Part shown: one piece after another, positions 9,423 through 38,997 of the stretch
How positions within the stretch are numbered: the first letter of the stretch is position 1
Layout of the letters: every line of letters starts with the position of its first letter
Sequence record: OR515477.1
Strand: one strand, 5' to 3'
Origin: Escherichia phage Es2
DNA length: 64,000 bases
Made by a program: the position numbers and the translations under genes
The notes under the pieces: generated by a model
The model's database searches: none
Told to the model about the DNA's origin: nothing
What the model saw: only the letters and a program-made list of their open reading frames with translations

Positions 9423-9929
9423 TTACACCTTAAATTGTTGTAAGGATTTACACATTTCAAGATCTGGGCTAAATTCTAGCATATAGCTAACAGCTTTTAA
9501 ATCTTGAAGATTTACCCCAGTCCTACCATTGACTATAACCGTTGGATACTGGTACATCATAGCACCAGCATCATCCAGCACACACCAATGTTTGAGCTTA
9601 TGCTTTTCAACGAAGCGAAGAACAGAATTACCCCTAGATAATCCACCCCCGGTAAAATCCGTTGTACCAAGAAAACGATCGATAAGACCTAATCCGGTCA
9701 TAATCTGAACGTTCTCCATCTCATTTCTGACAGAGAACCAAGATGATACCCCAACAATCATTATTGAAGAGGGACGAATAAAATCCTGAAAAGCCTTGAG
9801 AAGTGGCTTAAAAACCCAATCACTTCCGAAGAAGATCTTTTCATCATCCGGCGCATGGTGGTGCGAGATGCTCGAATTGAGCACCCCATCAATATCTAGA
9901 AAAATAACTGGAGTATTACTTATTTCCAT
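9423..9929 (-). CDS. HAD-superfamily phosphatase-like protein
   Basis: N-terminal FLDIDGVLN (DxDG[TV] HAD motif I). Confidence 0.55.
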   Translation of the reverse strand: MEISNTPVIFLDIDGVLNSSISHHHAPDDEKIFFGSDWVFKPLLKAFQDFIRPSSIMIVGVSSWFSVRNEMENVQIMTGLGLIDRFLGTTDFTGGGLSRGNSVLRFVEKHKLKHWCVLDDAGAMMYQYPTVIVNGRTGVNLQDLKAVSYMLEFSPDLEMCKSLQQFKV

Positions 9930-10098
9930 TTTTGTTCCTTTCTAAGAACGTATCATACTCAACCGTATCAACATATATGACACCATAGTCATCGGATTTA
10001 TAGTCCATTTCCCACAGCTCACAGCGATAACACCAACTACCATCCGCCCATACAAATATATCATCGGGATGTGTATATACAGATTTAACTATAGACAT
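9916..10098 (-). CDS. hypothetical protein
   Basis: 60 aa ORF overlapping neighbours by a few nt (coupled). Confidence 0.4.
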   Translation of the reverse strand: MSIVKSVYTHPDDIFVWADGSWCYRCELWEMDYKSDDYGVIYVDTVEYDTFLERNKNGNK

Positions 10099-10913
10099 AT
10101 TTGTTTCCCTGGCATATAAGGTCTACCCTCTAAATGAGCTTCCACACGAGCAATAAAATCAGGATCACTGAAAGCATCTACCGCACCTTTACTCCAGTAA
10201 GGGATACCACGTTCTTCCAACTGGTACATCTCACTACGAGTCATACCTTGATAGCCGGGCTCCGCTGCTAGAGCACTATCATAGTAGTTAACAACCATAA
10301 GTTTCGCAGCAGTCAAATTAAGAACAGGAAATAATTCCCAGTAGAAGTTAATTACTTGGTTAGAACAACCAACTACAATAATCATATCTTGACTGGTAAT
10401 ACTGTCAAAAACATTATACATTTCTGTGTATGCAGGAGCATGCTCTCCAAAGAAGATTACATTAGGTTTAACCCATTTATAATCATCTGGATCAATAGAA
10501 TTGTATCCTACGTCAATAATCCGTTTATTGCTACTATTATAGCTATCAGCTACAATAATCTCTTTTAAATATCCGTGAATGTGCAGAATGTCACTATGTG
10601 GAACGCCAGCACGTTCAATAAGGTCATCAACGTTAGTAGTCAAGTTTACTACTTGACCTGGATATTGTTTATACCATTCACCAATACGCAAATGCGCAAG
10701 ATTGGGTTCAACAGTTTTTAGCTCTTCACGACGTTTATTGTAAAATGCGTGAGTTTTATGATAAAAGTTACCACGAAAGGCATGAATATTACATACCTCT
10801 TCTAGATCATAATCATCCCACAATGCCTTACCGCTAGCAGTATCCGTACGGAAGGCTCGTACACCACTTTCAACGCTCAAACCTGCACCACTAATAATAA
10901 TTAATCTACGCAT
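10089..10913 (-). CDS. Sir2-family (sirtuin-like) NAD-dependent protein
   Basis: ISGAGLSVESGVRAFR (GAGIS..SGIP.FR-like), TNVDDLIERAG (TQNID.LH..AG-like) and HIHG motifs. Confidence 0.7.
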   Translation of the reverse strand: MRRLIIISGAGLSVESGVRAFRTDTASGKALWDDYDLEEVCNIHAFRGNFYHKTHAFYNKRREELKTVEPNLAHLRIGEWYKQYPGQVVNLTTNVDDLIERAGVPHSDILHIHGYLKEIIVADSYNSSNKRIIDVGYNSIDPDDYKWVKPNVIFFGEHAPAYTEMYNVFDSITSQDMIIVVGCSNQVINFYWELFPVLNLTAAKLMVVNYYDSALAAEPGYQGMTRSEMYQLEERGIPYWSKGAVDAFSDPDFIARVEAHLEGRPYMPGKQICL

Positions 10914-11776: not shown

Positions 11777-13651
11777 TTATTTAGCTCGAATATCCTGATG
11801 TTTCACTCTGCCCATAACCTCGTGCTGTTTGCCAGGGTTAAATGGACGAGCACCTGGATTTCCAAGATACCCACAAACTCGACGAGTTACTTCAAGAGTT
11901 TCGGGGTCATGATTACCACAGATAGGGCACTTAAATCCATCTTCGGATGCTACTGTTTCACCTAAGAATCCACATTTACCACAAGAATCCACTGGAGTAT
12001 TAATACCGAAGTAATGAACTTTACTAGCAGCATAATTAATAACCCATTCCAGTGCATCTGGGAATCGTTTCATATCTGGTAGTTCTACATAGGAAATGCA
12101 CCCACCAGAAGCAATCGGAGTAAAATTAGATTCATAATCAAATTTCACATTGGGAGCAACTTTGCGTTCTACATCAAGGTGGTGCGAGTTAGTGTAGTAA
12201 CCTTTACTAAGAATATCTTCATGCTCCGGGAAATATTCACGATCTAAACGGCAGAAACGATCACATAAGGATTCAGATGGTGTAGCATACAGGCTATAAC
12301 CTAACTTAGTTTCTTCCTTCTTCTGATCGACTCTATCCCGCATGTACTGCAATACACGCTGAACAAACTTGATGCAGGTATCGGACATTGTGTCTACATC
12401 TTTGCCAAACATGAACTGTAGCATTTCATGGCAACCAATATACCCTAGAGATACAGAAGCACGGTTATAGAAATGATCGAATACATATTCATCAGGCTCC
12501 AAGCGTAACCCAAAGGCTCCTGACATATAGAGGATGGGTGCAGCTTTAGCTTGGATGTATTTTAAGCGATCAACTCTCCACTCCAATGCTTTTAGCGCTG
12601 TATCCACACGTAGCTCAAGCAAATCAAAGAATAGATCAATATTTCCTTCAGCTTCGATAGCAATTCTAGGCAAGTTTACAGAAACAACACCTAAGTTATT
12701 ACGACCGGCAGTTTCACCATCTTCTGCAGCAGCTAGGAATGAACGACAGCCCATAGAAACTTTGTAGTCTCCAGTAACTTCTACAACCTTGTCATAGCTG
12801 ATATAATCTGGATACATACGTTCAGACGTACATTTCATAGCTAACTTCTTGATGTCATAATTAACATCCCCTGGTTTCATGTTAACGCCATCACGGAGTA
12901 CAAATACCAGTTTAGGGAAGATAGCTGTACGCTTATTGATACCTAAACCATCCATGCGTACTTTCAGTATTGCTTTCTGTACTAGACGTGCTTCCCAAGA
13001 AGTTCCTAGACCAAAACCAAAGGTAATAAATGGACTCTGACCATTAGAGTTGAACATGGTATTGATTTCATATTCTAAACCCTGACAAGCGTCATAGACT
13101 TCTTTTTCAGTCATCTCCGTAGCCATTACGGATGCTTTAGCTTCATCCTTAGTCCAACGTTTTGCAAACGCATGATTTTTGTCATAGGATTTACGAACAT
13201 AAGGGGCTAATACTTCATCAAGGCGATCTACAGAAGTACCACCATACTGATGGGAGCTAACCTGAGTGATAATCTGAGCAGTAATAGCCGCCGCAGTAGT
13301 GATAGAGTTTGGAGTGCTAATTTCAGCATTACCAACCTTCATACCATTCTTCAACATATCTTCCAGAGCTACCAGGCAACAGTTAGTCATGCCTAATGCA
13401 GCATAATCAGCATCATGGAAATGAATATCCCCAATCATATGAGCATTTCGAATCTGAATTGGCATTTCTTCTAGAATCAGATACTTACTCAATTCACCTG
13501 CAAGCATATCCCTTTGTGTAGGGAAACGTTCTGAGGGTTTATTGGCATTATTAAACAGCAGCTCTTCATCTGCTGACCCTTCGATAATCTCTTTGCAGTT
13601 TCTAATTAACGCCTGCATTTCTTTATACTTTAGTTCTTCATTGCGATTCAT
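11777..13651 (-). CDS. nrdD: anaerobic ribonucleoside-triphosphate reductase (class III RNR)
   Basis: C-terminal glycyl-radical motif TRRVCGYLG, Cys-rich CGKCGF..CPICG zinc site, 624 aa. Confidence 0.8.
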   Translation of the reverse strand: MNRNEELKYKEMQALIRNCKEIIEGSADEELLFNNANKPSERFPTQRDMLAGELSKYLILEEMPIQIRNAHMIGDIHFHDADYAALGMTNCCLVALEDMLKNGMKVGNAEISTPNSITTAAAITAQIITQVSSHQYGGTSVDRLDEVLAPYVRKSYDKNHAFAKRWTKDEAKASVMATEMTEKEVYDACQGLEYEINTMFNSNGQSPFITFGFGLGTSWEARLVQKAILKVRMDGLGINKRTAIFPKLVFVLRDGVNMKPGDVNYDIKKLAMKCTSERMYPDYISYDKVVEVTGDYKVSMGCRSFLAAAEDGETAGRNNLGVVSVNLPRIAIEAEGNIDLFFDLLELRVDTALKALEWRVDRLKYIQAKAAPILYMSGAFGLRLEPDEYVFDHFYNRASVSLGYIGCHEMLQFMFGKDVDTMSDTCIKFVQRVLQYMRDRVDQKKEETKLGYSLYATPSESLCDRFCRLDREYFPEHEDILSKGYYTNSHHLDVERKVAPNVKFDYESNFTPIASGGCISYVELPDMKRFPDALEWVINYAASKVHYFGINTPVDSCGKCGFLGETVASEDGFKCPICGNHDPETLEVTRRVCGYLGNPGARPFNPGKQHEVMGRVKHQDIRAK

Positions 13652-26853: not shown

Positions 26854-26925
26854 GCCGTCCTAGTATAATTGGTATTATCAAGCCGTAACTGGTGGAAGAT
26901 GTAGGTTCGAATCCTACGGTCGGTA
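26854..26925 (+). tRNA. tRNA-like (isotype undetermined)
   Basis: T-arm GTAGG-TTCGAAT-CCTAC and acceptor GCCGTCC/GGTCGGT, but no clean anticodon arm. Confidence 0.35.
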
Positions 26926-29215: not shown

Positions 29216-29290
29216 GGTTCTCAAGCTCATATGGTATGAGCACCCGGCTCATAACCGGAAGGTACGTAGGTTCGAATCCTCGGGGAGCCA
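29216..29290 (+). tRNA. tRNA-Met/Ile2 (anticodon CAT)
   Basis: Acceptor GGTTCTC/GGGAGCC, anticodon loop CTCATAA, TTCGAAT T-loop (T-stem imperfect), CCA encoded. Confidence 0.6.
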
Positions 29291-37836: not shown

Positions 37837-37909
37837 AGTTAGTTGGCAGAGTGGTTATGCACCTCCTTCATACGGAGCGACTACAGTGGTTCAAATCCAC
37901 TACTAACTA
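37837..37909 (+). tRNA. tRNA-Met/Ile2 (anticodon CAT)
   Basis: Acceptor AGTTAGT/ACTAACT, anticodon loop TTCATAC, T-arm AGTGG-TTCAAAT-CCACT, CCA encoded. Confidence 0.65.
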
Positions 37910-37949
37910 CCATTAAAAGAGCTAGAGATAGCTAACTTTAGGAGCAGCT

Positions 37950-38144
37950 ATGTTAACAATTAAAATAATGTCAGCCAAGAATGGGGAACAGATTCATACA
38001 GGCAAAAGTGTAAGCTTTAATCCTAGAAATAAAAGACTGGCTATAGTTGGAGTAGACCAAGCCATCTTTTTAAAAGAAGATGAAGTAGCATATGTCATGA
38101 ACCAAACTGGTAAGACAGTTTCCGTATACTATGGAAAAGTATAA
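37950..38144 (+). CDS. hypothetical protein
   Basis: 64 aa ORF, AGGAG RBS. Confidence 0.45.
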   Translation: MLTIKIMSAKNGEQIHTGKSVSFNPRNKRLAIVGVDQAIFLKEDEVAYVMNQTGKTVSVYYGKV

Positions 38145-38186
38145 AGAATAAATAGCTGAGCCAAATTCTAACATCGGGGAGATCTA

Positions 38187-38555
38187 ATGAAAGCATATCA
38201 AAACCTTAAATCTGGCGTAATTAATATTGTTCATAATAATCAGATCATTCAGCTATATTCCGATAATGGTGAACTTAAACAGAAAGTTCTAGTTGAAGAT
38301 CTAGAAGGTATCACACCTCACTTTGACCCTGAGGCCTTTCGCATTGTAGATGTGGAAGTGGTTCCTCAAATCGAAGGTGGTCAGCACCTAAATGTCAATG
38401 TATTAAGCCGTGATCAGCTTTTGGATGCGCAGAAACATCCTGAAAAATACCCTCAATTAACTATCCGTGTTTCAGGGTACGCTGTTCGATTTAATGCACT
38501 GACTCGTGAACAACAGAACGACGTTATTAGTCGTACATTTACTCAGGCGATGTAA
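38187..38555 (+). CDS. grcA: autonomous glycyl-radical cofactor-like protein (GrcA/YfiD-like)
   Basis: C-terminal [11 protein letters not shown]...[37 protein letters not shown] closely matches the GrcA/PFL glycyl-radical domain as recalled from memory (RVSGY motif). Confidence 0.7.
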
Positions 38556-38636: not shown

Positions 38637-38951
38637 GTGGATCGAGCATTAAGACGTCATCACAGGCAACGTGTAAAGAACAACCGCAAGAAGTACTGGA
38701 CAGTCTTTCCACATGAAGAAAGCCCTAAGCGGTTAGGTATTATCACTACTACTCCTTGCATCTGTTCTTGTTGGATGTGTGGGAACCCTCGCAAGTACTA
38801 TAAGAATAGTAAAGCAGGCATGAAAACCTCGGAGATCAGGAAAATGGAAGCGATGATTATGGGCATCTCAAATGATGAATTTGATGGCTTTGTAGGATTC
38901 GGAGAAGGAATCAGCTCAGGCTGTTTAGAAGATGAACGCCCCGACCTGTAA
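38637..38951 (+). CDS. hypothetical Cys-rich basic protein
   Basis: 104 aa ORF, CICSCWMC motif; start codon uncertain. Confidence 0.4.
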   Translation: MDRALRRHHRQRVKNNRKKYWTVFPHEESPKRLGIITTTPCICSCWMCGNPRKYYKNSKAGMKTSEIRKMEAMIMGISNDEFDGFVGFGEGISSGCLEDERPDL

Positions 38952-38962
38952 TTAATAACAAA

Positions 38963-38997
38963 CCCCAGCTATTGAATAAGTAGTCTGGGGTTTTTCT
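38963..38997 (+). terminator. rho-independent terminator
   Basis: CCCCAG...CTGGGG hairpin followed by TTTTTCT. Confidence 0.6.

What the first reader, a model, noticed from the sequence alone, without database searches (positions are those of the whole stretch)
38187..38555. GrcA-like glycyl-radical spare-part gene in a phage that also encodes the glycyl-radical enzyme NrdD
The 122-aa product ends with ...[33 protein letters not shown], closely matching the autonomous glycyl-radical cofactor GrcA/YfiD, which restores oxygen-cleaved pyruvate formate-lyase. The phage also encodes class III RNR NrdD (11777-13651, glycyl-radical motif RRVCGYLG), but no nrdG-like radical-SAM activase is seen in the window. 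The phage may carry GrcA to maintain host PFL activity or to interface with glycyl-radical chemistry during infection under microaerobic conditions.
Basis: partly seen in the sequence, partly recalled or inferred. Interest (0 to 1): 0.65.

Follow-up and report, generated by a model that had tools for sequence, protein, structure and literature searches.

The report
Phage copy of GrcA spare-part protein
This T5-like phage gene encodes a small protein that most likely repairs the host's oxygen-damaged pyruvate formate-lyase; it is real and under selection, but it is ordinary, because the T4 counterpart was characterised in 2001 and the gene is present in over 1,500 phage genome records.

Summary
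ORF 38187..38555 (+) encodes 122 aa ending in a PFL-type glycyl-radical domain. It contains the exact PFL-activase substrate heptapeptide RVSGYAV, with the radical glycine at G97. The window is a T5-like phage (Tequintavirus), about 97% identical to Escherichia phage IME178, and the gene is the ortholog of T5.056. Over its full length it is 51% identical to T4 vs.6/Y06I, one of only two biochemically validated spare-part proteins. Its last 62 residues are 79% identical to E. coli PflB 698-759 and 77% to GrcA/YfiD. tblastn finds it in 1,582 phage records, several already labelled GrcA. Across 29 T5-like alleles dN/dS is 0.07. NrdD is present, on the minus strand. No NrdG or PflA-type activase is found in the window or in the IME178 genome. 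The GrcA-like protein shows no significant pairwise (BLASTP) similarity to the phage NrdD, so it is not a spare part for it. The most likely mechanism is that host PflA puts a radical on G97 and the protein then restores O2-cleaved host PFL. A plausible rationale, which is inference only, is that PFL supplies formate, the reductant of formate-type class III RNR. The only unusual feature is an N-terminal half more divergent than in other phage or bacterial GrcAs. Verdict: known kind, low interest.

The parts
38187..38555 (+). grcA-like gene (ortholog of T5.056 and of T4 vs.6/Y06I). [quoted passage not shown]
38176..38181 (+). Shine-Dalgarno-like GGGGAG, 5 nt upstream of the ATG
   Evidence: read directly from the sequence
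37837..37912 (+). tRNA-Met(CAT), the last tRNA of the phage tRNA cluster. It lies upstream on the same strand, so the gene sits at the distal end of the tRNA/early region, as in T5.
37950..38144 (+). 64-aa ORF (phrog_3909, function unknown) between tRNA-Met and grcA. It is present in only 13 of about 31 T5-like loci, so it is not an obligatory partner.
38637..38951 (+). 104-aa ORF (T5.055 ortholog, phrog_4499, function unknown) 81 nt downstream and apparently co-transcribed. It carries a CxCxCxxCGNPR motif. It follows grcA in the T5-like loci but was not found in the T4 region examined.
38960..38993 (+). Intrinsic-terminator hairpin followed by a U-run, which closes the transcription unit (-19 kcal/mol, z = -5.2). 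It corresponds to the terminator annotated in T5 after T5.055.
11777..13651 (-). Class III (anaerobic) ribonucleotide reductase NrdD, 624 aa, with glycyl-radical motif RRVCGYLG. It is 54% identical to E. coli NrdD, lacks that enzyme's first ~110 residues (the N-terminal region), and keeps the C/M/C residues typical of formate-dependent enzymes. It is context for the finding, not physically linked to grcA.

Best explanation
[quoted passage not shown] It is expressed from the tRNA/early region of a T5-like phage. The proposed mechanism follows, and every step in it is inferred by homology. The host radical-SAM activase PflA abstracts a hydrogen from G97 in the RVSGYAV loop. The activated protein docks into host pyruvate formate-lyase whose own C-terminal radical domain has been cut off by oxygen at G734, or is otherwise inactive. 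The G97 radical is passed to PflB Cys419, and pyruvate cleavage to acetyl-CoA and formate resumes. The phage thereby keeps fermentative acetyl-CoA/ATP and formate production running in host cells exposed to traces of oxygen. A likely additional benefit is that formate is the reductant of formate-type class III ribonucleotide reductases, and the phage encodes such an NrdD. Because the phage encodes no activase, both of its glycyl-radical proteins would have to be switched on by pre-existing host enzymes: PflA for GrcA and NrdG for NrdD.
For: What is shown here: (1) The ORF and its motif are present. (2) Gly_radical scores above the Pfam cut-off. (3) The best PDB matches are YfiD (2.8e-29) and the PflB C-terminus (6e-27), about 15 orders of magnitude better than other glycyl-radical enzymes; I counted 49/62 identities to PflB 698-759 and 48/62 to GrcA from that alignment. 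(4) RVSGYAV is present exactly; this heptapeptide is a competent PFL-AE substrate (PMC10665898). (5) The protein is 51% identical over its full length to T4 vs.6/Y06I; Y06I is activated by PFL-AE and restores O2-cleaved PFL (PMC8683613). (6) Both proteins fall in the same PHROG, phrog_1209, over their full length. (7) The AF2 model's C-terminal half matches the YfiD NMR structure and PFL. (8) Purifying selection is strong: dN/dS is 0.07 overall, 0.017 in the C half and 0.11 in the N half. (9) The gene is conserved in T5 itself as T5.056 and is found in 1,582 phage records. (10) No activase is present in the window or in the closest complete genome. (11) The phage NrdD keeps the equivalents of E. 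coli C175/M382/C384; E. coli and T4 class III RNRs use formate as reductant, and PFL is the source of formate (PMC4390871). (12) In vivo, GrcA transfers its radical to PflB C419 (PMC12338860).
Against: Nothing biochemical is known for any T5-like ortholog. The protein scores 118.9 bits on NCBIfam TIGR04365, below the 170-bit equivalog cut-off, and only residues 54-122 match; the validated T4 Y06I also falls below the cut-off at 151 bits. The N-terminal half contributes to cPFL binding in E. coli YfiD; in this protein it shows no direct similarity to bacterial GrcA and links to it only through other phage homologs. The formate-to-NrdD rationale rests only on co-occurrence in a few phage groups, and no co-occurrence statistic could be computed. 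T5 infection is short, and the phage also carries an aerobic class Ia RNR, so the fitness value may be confined to micro-oxic niches.
Confidence: 0.85

Rival explanations
1. It is a spare part for the phage's own glycyl-radical enzyme NrdD, replacing NrdD's oxygen-cleaved C-terminus.
For: The two genes occur in the same genome, and the phage has no activase of its own. Reviewers of the field speculate that spare parts may exist for other glycyl-radical enzymes (PMC8683613).
Against: BLASTP finds no significant similarity between the 122-aa protein and the phage NrdD (best E=3.5), beyond the Pfam Gly_radical domain that both match. The NrdD radical loop is RRVCGYLG, preceded by a Cys-rich segment (CGKCG...CPICG), whereas this protein has the PFL loop RVSGYAV and is 79% identical to the PflB C-terminus. 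The two genes lie about 25 kb apart on opposite strands.
Confidence: 0.02
2. It is a decoy or inhibitor. It soaks up host PflA, or occupies PFL non-productively, to redirect pyruvate flux or SAM use during infection.
For: The N-terminal half is unusually divergent from bacterial GrcA and is predicted to fold rather than be disordered. Phage early genes often antagonise host metabolism.
Against: The T4 homolog restores PFL activity rather than blocking it. The radical glycine and all 32 columns that are invariant across the 51 aligned phage and bacterial homologs are kept. The C-terminal half is under very strong purifying selection (dN/dS 0.017), as expected for a catalytically competent radical domain.
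Confidence: 0.05
3. It serves the PFL paralog TdcE (2-ketobutyrate formate-lyase) or another PFL-like host enzyme instead of, or in addition to, PflB.
For: Several GenBank records label the gene '2-ketobutyrate formate-lyase'. TdcE is a formate-producing glycyl-radical enzyme of E. coli (abstract of PMC5600444, listed). The protein is about equally distant from PflB (79%) and GrcA (77%).
Against: No TdcE comparison was made here, and the database labels are automatic. PflB is the major, constitutively present enzyme, and it is the only demonstrated GrcA client.
Confidence: 0.07
4. It is a non-functional captured fragment of a host pflB or grcA gene.
For: The gene is short, many records annotate it as 'hypothetical', and truncated versions exist (67-aa P0033; a 30-122 match in KKP_3822).
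Against: The full-length ORF is intact in about 30 independent T5-like genomes, with dS 0.38 and dN/dS 0.07. It has a ribosome-binding site and a terminator-bounded transcription unit. It is conserved between T5-like and T4-like phages.
Confidence: 0.01

Closest known systems
Bacteriophage T4 Y06I (gene vs.6), autonomous glycyl radical cofactor
   Same: Both are stand-alone proteins of about 120 aa that start MKAYQ. They are 51% identical over the full length and belong to the same PHROG, phrog_1209. Both carry an identical [19 protein letters not shown] core. Both come from virulent coliphages that also encode NrdD. Y06I is activated by host PFL-AE and restores O2-cleaved PFL.
   Different: The C-terminal half of T4 Y06I is almost identical to E. 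coli GrcA, while the T5-like one is equally distant from GrcA and PflB. The N half of T4 Y06I still matches the bacterial GrcA model from position 25, whereas the T5-like N half does not. T4 carries its own NrdG and the T5-like phage does not. The T5-like protein has never been tested.
E. coli GrcA/YfiD (PDB 6owr; NCBIfam TIGR04365)
   Same: The two-part architecture and size are the same. Identity is 73% over residues 51-122. The radical glycine aligns (G102 in E. coli, G97 here). The AF2 model of the C half superposes on the NMR structure.
   Different: It is a bacterial stress-induced gene. Its N-terminal 60 residues are disordered in solution, whereas the phage N half is predicted as a small beta-sheet with pLDDT 82-89. 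The phage N half has no direct sequence similarity to it. The phage protein scores 118.9 bits against the 170-bit family cut-off.
C-terminal glycyl-radical domain of pyruvate formate-lyase PflB (residues 698-759; PDB 2pfl, 1h16)
   Same: Identity is 79% over 62 residues, including RVSGYAV and the C-terminal ...RTFTQxM ending. This is the segment that the spare part structurally replaces.
   Different: PflB is a 759-aa enzyme with the catalytic Cys418/Cys419. The phage protein has only the radical-bearing module and cannot catalyse anything on its own.
Short GrcA2/GrcA3 forms (NCBIfam NF008341, NF038360; about 80 aa)
   Same: The C-terminal 60 residues match these models at 90-116 bits.
   Different: These forms lack the N-terminal half. 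The phage protein falls below both cut-offs (145 and 158 bits) and has a conserved 60-residue N half.

Membership tests
[quoted passage not shown] | Small stand-alone protein (about 120-130 aa) rather than a domain of a large enzyme | tested here: met
   The ORF encodes 122 aa between an RBS-preceded ATG and a TAA stop.
[quoted passage not shown] | C-terminal glycine-radical domain (Pfam PF01228) above the gathering score | tested here: met
   66.2 bits against a cut-off of 22.2, residues 63-103.
[quoted passage not shown] | Radical glycine within the PFL-type loop RVSGYAV, the PFL-AE recognition heptapeptide | tested here: met
   RVSGYAV lies at residues 94-100, with G97 aligned to GrcA G102 and PflB G734. 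The peptide is a PFL-AE substrate mimic (PMC10665898).
[quoted passage not shown] | Radical domain is specifically PFL-like rather than like other glycyl-radical enzymes | tested here: met
   PflB E=6e-27 and YfiD E=2.8e-29, against 2e-12 or weaker for YbiW, CutC, diol and glycerol dehydratases and others.
[quoted passage not shown] | Score above the NCBIfam TIGR04365 equivalog cut-off (170 bits) | tested here: not met
   118.9 bits, with only residues 54-122 aligned. As a calibration, E. coli GrcA scores 234 bits, but the biochemically validated T4 Y06I also fails at 151.1 bits, and T5.056 scores 121.5 bits. The cut-off therefore appears to exclude the phage forms tested here; it rejects one validated spare part.
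[quoted passage not shown] | N-terminal half homologous to the GrcA N-terminal half, which contributes to cPFL binding | tested here: inconclusive
   hhalign was run on the N halves only. T5-like versus bacterial gives no match (probability 0.5%). T5-like versus other phage forms gives 79% probability, E=1.6e-5. Other phage forms versus bacterial give 99% probability, E=3e-18. Homology is therefore only transitive.
[quoted passage not shown] | Fold of the C half equals the YfiD NMR structure and the PFL C-terminal domain | tested here: met
   Foldseek with the AF2 model: 6owr E=1.7e-5 (TM 0.74 on the target) and 2pfl E=5.5e-4. This is expected, given about 80% sequence identity.
[quoted passage not shown] | Converted to an oxygen-sensitive glycyl radical by PFL activase (PflA) | not testable with these tools
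   This needs EPR and O2-cleavage assays. It has been shown only for YfiD and T4 Y06I.
[quoted passage not shown] | Restores catalytic activity to O2-cleaved or G734-mutant PFL | not testable with these tools
   This needs reconstitution or complementation, for example in strain DH903 (PMC12338860).
Phage GrcA family (phrog_1209; T4 vs.6/Y06I) | Full-length match to the phage family profile and to T4 Y06I | tested here: met
   phrog_1209 E=5e-47 over residues 1-122. T4 vs.6 hits the same PHROG at E=6e-62. BLASTP to T4 vs.6 gives 51% identity, E=9e-38.
Glycyl-radical enzyme activase (radical-SAM NrdG/PflA) encoded by the phage | CxxxCxxC cluster motif in a protein of about 150 aa or more that is homologous to NrdG or PflA | tested here: not met
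   There is a single CxxxCxxC in the window, in a 104-aa ORF with no Pfam hit. tblastn with T4 NrdG and E. coli NrdG against the window and the IME178 genome gives no hit better than E=0.11. PflA itself was not used as a query.
Class III ribonucleotide reductase NrdD (context gene) | NRDD catalytic domain plus a C-terminal glycyl-radical motif | tested here: met
   Pfam NRDD E=1e-171 and Gly_radical E=8e-23. The protein is 54% identical to E. coli NrdD and has RRVCGYLG.

The most novel reading that the evidence does not exclude
T5-like phages carry two glycyl-radical proteins (NrdD and GrcA) but no activase, so anaerobic dNTP synthesis by the phage would depend on two host radical-SAM enzymes. 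On this reading the phage GrcA exists mainly to keep PFL-derived formate flowing to the formate-dependent phage NrdD, making a metabolic relay between two glycyl-radical enzymes. The unusually divergent N-terminal half is under selection and is predicted to fold, and it may have been retuned for faster or broader docking, for example onto intact PFL or TdcE, than bacterial GrcA achieves.
Probability: 0.2. Interest if true: 0.45.

Novelty: already known. Interest (0 to 1): 0.18.

Why it matters
The finding matters little as a discovery. Phage-encoded GrcA has been known since the T4 Y06I work of 2001. The T5 ortholog (T5.056) is annotated in the T5 reference record (NC_005859) by its glycine-radical domain. 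Hundreds of T5-like genomes carry the gene, and some already name it grcA. Two things are modestly useful. First, annotation of this gene is chaotic: it appears as pyruvate formate-lyase, 2-ketobutyrate formate-lyase, acetyltransferase-related protein, ribonucleotide reductase subunit or hypothetical protein, and it could be harmonised to 'autonomous glycyl radical cofactor GrcA'. Second, T5-like phages offer a clean genetic system for asking why virulent enterophages maintain host fermentation under micro-oxic gut conditions. They have NrdD and GrcA, no NrdG, and a phage-specific N half. The question of whether PFL-derived formate feeds the phage class III RNR could be tested there.

Tried and rejected
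1. Spare part for phage NrdD. Rejected: BLASTP finds no significant similarity.
2. A hidden activase in the window. Rejected after the CxxxCxxC scan of all six frames and tblastn with T4 and E. coli NrdG against the window and the whole IME178 genome. The only motif hit, the 104-aa ORF next to grcA, has no Pfam match and is too small.
3. The 104-aa and 64-aa neighbours as functional partners. Not supported. ORF104 is syntenic only within T5-like phages and was not found in the T4 region examined. ORF64 is present in only 13 of about 31 loci.
4. Pseudogene or captured fragment. Rejected by dN/dS.
5. Structured RNA around the gene. Rfam finds only tRNAs in 26-41 kb.
6. The simple promoter and terminator scan gave counts no higher than in shuffled sequence and missed the real terminator because of its loop length. 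Folding the region recovered the terminator.
7. Literature on T5-like GrcA. No paper in the held library contains both 'pyruvate formate' and 'T5-like', and none contains nrdG, nrdD and T5-like together. The original Wagner 2001 paper and Kammel & Sawers 2022 are not held.
8. A genome-wide co-occurrence statistic for GrcA and NrdD across phages could not be computed, because the search tool returns at most 60 rows.

Full report
OBSERVATION. The ORF at 38187..38555 on the + strand is real. A GGGGAG Shine-Dalgarno-like element lies 5 nt upstream of the ATG. No competing ORF of any size overlaps it on the minus strand. The + strand translation is full of stops. The minus strand gives a 624-aa protein with Pfam NRDD (E=1e-171), Gly_radical (E=8e-23) and the motif RRVCGYLG.

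WHAT THE WINDOW IS. The region is 100% identical to Escherichia phage IME178 over the 1.1 kb around the gene. Most other aligned blocks across the window are 91-99% identical, and a few near the window's 3' end fall to 82-88%. IME178 is a Tequintavirus (Demerecviridae), that is, a T5-like phage. The gene sits at the distal end of the large tRNA cluster, which has 23 tRNAs by ARAGORN and 24 by Rfam. The local order is tRNA-Met (37837-37912), a 64-aa ORF, the grcA-like gene, a 104-aa ORF, and then a strong hairpin terminator at 38960-38993 (-19 kcal/mol, z=-5.2, followed by a U-run). The prototype phage T5 has the same arrangement. There the ortholog is T5.056, 'putative acetyltransferase-related protein, identified by match to InterPro domain IPR001150', and it is followed by T5.055 and an annotated rho-independent terminator.

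WHAT THE PROTEIN IS.
- Pfam Gly_radical scores 66.2 bits against a cut-off of 22.2.
- Against all PDB sequences the best hits are E. coli YfiD/GrcA (6owr, E=2.8e-29) and the C-terminus of pyruvate formate-lyase (residues 698-759, E=6e-27). Every other glycyl-radical enzyme scores E=2e-12 or weaker.
- From the printed alignments, residues 61-122 are 49/62 (79%) identical to PflB 698-759 and 48/62 (77%) identical to GrcA.
- The heptapeptide RVSGYAV, which is itself a competent substrate mimic for the PFL activase (PMC10665898), is present exactly at residues 94-100. G97 aligns with GrcA G102 and PflB G734.
- The protein matches phage family phrog_1209 over its whole length (E=5e-47).
- It is 51% identical over its whole length to T4 vs.6. 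T4 vs.6 is Y06I.
- Y06I and E. coli YfiD are the only two 'spare part' proteins validated biochemically. Both are activated by PFL-AE and restore activity to oxygen-cleaved PFL (Wagner et al. 2001, as summarised in PMC8683613; also PMC13450708).

IS IT FUNCTIONAL? Thirty T5-like orthologs from IMG/VR plus the window gave 29 distinct nucleotide alleles and 18 distinct proteins. Pooled Nei-Gojobori estimates are dS 0.38, dN 0.027 and dN/dS 0.07. The N-terminal half gives 0.11 and the C-terminal half 0.017. Both halves are therefore under purifying selection, and the pseudogene or captured-fragment idea is excluded.

HOW COMMON IS IT? tblastn finds the protein in 1,582 phage records. These include about 440 T5-like genomes at the DNA level, T4-like phages at about 50% identity over the full length, and Klebsiella/Salmonella jumbo phages, Vibrio phages and others. 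The large protein database adds bacterial GrcAs from Vibrio, Aeromonas, Photobacterium and Pantoea. GenBank labels for the T5-like gene range from 'autonomous glycyl radical cofactor'/grcA to 'pyruvate formate-lyase', '2-ketobutyrate formate-lyase', 'acetyltransferase-related', 'ribonucleotide reductase subunit' and 'hypothetical'. So the gene is already known and partly correctly annotated.

THE ONE UNUSUAL FEATURE IS THE N-TERMINAL HALF.
- NCBIfam's GrcA equivalog model (TIGR04365) matches only residues 54-122 and scores 118.9 bits, below its 170-bit cut-off.
- As a calibration, E. coli GrcA scores 234 bits, but the validated T4 Y06I also fails at 151 bits, and T5.056 scores 121.5 bits. Failing the cut-off therefore does not argue against function.
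- With the C-terminal domain removed, profile-profile comparison of the N halves gave three results. Other phage forms versus bacterial GrcA: 99% probability, E=3e-18. T5-like versus other phage forms: 79% probability, E=1.6e-5. T5-like versus bacterial: nothing.
- The T5-like N half is therefore the most divergent known branch and connects to GrcA only transitively.
- An AlphaFold2 model built on a 51-sequence alignment has mean pLDDT 77.7. It predicts the N half as four to five beta-strands with pLDDT 82-89, although the YfiD N half is disordered in solution.
- The C half of the model matches 6owr (E=1.7e-5) and PFL (E=5.5e-4). Nothing in the PDB matches the N half.
- In YfiD the N half promotes cPFL binding and efficient radical installation but is dispensable for catalysis. 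A divergent yet constrained N half may therefore mean retuned docking. I cannot test this.

THE ACTIVASE QUESTION.
- A six-frame scan for CxxxCxxC in all stop-to-stop segments of at least 50 aa gave one hit. It lies in the 104-aa ORF just downstream of grcA (TPCICSCWMCGNPRKYY).
- That ORF has no Pfam match and belongs to a PHROG of unknown function. It is too small to be a radical-SAM enzyme. It accompanies grcA in the T5-like loci but was not found in the T4 region examined.
- tblastn with T4 NrdG and E. coli NrdG found nothing better than E=0.11 in the window or in the IME178 genome. The stretch of that genome not held as a locus lies within the window.
- T4, in contrast, has nrdG next to nrdD, and NrdG homologs occur in 2,280 phage records.
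- By inference, host enzymes must activate both phage glycyl-radical proteins.
- This is plausible for NrdD. It is 54% identical to E. coli NrdD, and its radical loop (VTRRVCGYLGNPGARPFNPGKQHEVMGRVKH) is nearly identical to the host's.

RELATION TO NrdD. BLASTP finds no significant similarity between the GrcA-like protein and the phage NrdD (best E=3.5), although both match the Pfam Gly_radical domain. It therefore cannot plausibly act as a spare part for NrdD. A metabolic link is more plausible. The phage NrdD conserves the equivalents of E. coli C175, M382 and C384 (C90, M299 and C301). By my knowledge of Wei et al. 2014, these mark the formate-dependent subclass, and the Cys-Met pair is mentioned in PMC4390871. 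The E. coli and T4 class III enzymes use formate as reductant, and PFL is the fermentative source of formate (PMC4390871). Keeping PFL alive under micro-oxic conditions would therefore sustain ATP and acetyl-CoA production and also the reductant for phage dNTP synthesis. This is inference. The phage also encodes an aerobic class Ia RNR, so the benefit would be niche-specific.

MECHANISM, WITH STATUS OF EACH STEP.
- The gene is expressed with the tRNA/early transcription unit. This is inferred from layout and from the T5 annotation.
- Host PflA generates a radical on G97. This is inferred from the exact RVSGYAV motif and the T4 precedent.
- The protein docks into PFL that has lost residues 734-759, with the N half assisting. 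This is inferred from the YfiD work.
- The radical passes to PflB C419 and catalysis resumes. This has been shown for E. coli GrcA in vivo (PMC12338860), not for this protein.

I put 0.85 on this explanation. The rivals are an NrdD spare part (0.02), a decoy or inhibitor (0.05), a TdcE-directed role that is not exclusive of the main explanation (0.07), and a dead fragment (0.01).

VERDICT. It is the T5-like ortholog of a phage GrcA family whose T4 member was characterised in 2001, and it is present in more than 1,500 phage records. Novelty: already known. Interest: about 0.18. What remains of interest is the untested, divergent N half and the fact that T5-like phages carry NrdD and GrcA without any activase. 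That makes them a clean system for testing the link from PFL through formate to NrdD.

Noticed in passing
window 38637-38951 (+): A 104-aa ORF lies directly downstream of grcA and is the T5.055 ortholog. It holds the only CxxxCxxC motif in the whole window (TPCICSCWMCGNPRKYY) and has a very basic N-terminus. It has no Pfam hit and falls in phrog_4499 (function unknown). It follows grcA at a fixed spacing in the T5-like loci but was not found in the T4 region examined. It is too small to be a radical-SAM activase and is probably a small Cys-cluster or zinc protein.
   Followed up: partly
window 11777-13651 (-): The phage NrdD lacks the first ~110 residues (N-terminal region) of E. coli NrdD, since the alignment starts at E. 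coli residue 113. It keeps the Cys/Met/Cys residues typical of formate-dependent class III RNRs, and its glycyl-radical loop is almost identical to the host enzyme's. No nrdG is present in the window or in the closest complete genome (IME178), unlike T4.
   Followed up: partly
window 38187-38366 (residues 1-60 of the protein): AlphaFold2 predicts the N-terminal half as a 4-5 stranded beta-sheet with pLDDT 82-89, although the corresponding half of E. coli YfiD is disordered by NMR. No PDB structure matches it. It is similar in sequence to other phage GrcAs but not directly to bacterial ones.
   Followed up: partly
window 9423-10913 (-): Downstream of nrdD lie a Sir2-family protein (274 aa, PF02146) and a HAD_SAK_2 phosphatase-like protein (168 aa, PF18143). 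They are separated from nrdD by three small ORFs in PHROGs of unknown function.
   Followed up: no
window 37950-38144 (+): A 64-aa ORF (phrog_3909) lies between tRNA-Met and grcA. It is present in only 13 of about 31 T5-like loci and is absent in T5 itself, so this is a variable insertion in an otherwise fixed gene order.
   Followed up: partly
window 26854-26925 and 29216-29290 (+): Rfam's tRNA model reports two tRNA-like genes here, at 35.5 and 40.3 bits, that ARAGORN did not list. IME178 annotates an undetermined tRNA and a second tRNA-Met at the corresponding positions.
   Followed up: no
L010 and L031 (IMG/VR contig IMGVR_UViG_2974601769_000001): The same 110.9-kb viral contig carries a grcA copy at each end, 95% and 93% identical to the query. 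This suggests an assembly that runs through a concatemer or mixes two related phages.
   Followed up: no
public records: Annotation of this gene in GenBank is inconsistent. It appears as formate-lyase, pyruvate formate-lyase, 2-ketobutyrate formate-lyase, acetyltransferase-related protein, ribonucleotide reductase subunit, hypothetical protein or GrcA. Truncated calls also exist, such as 67 aa in Citrobacter phage YZU-L1.
   Followed up: partly
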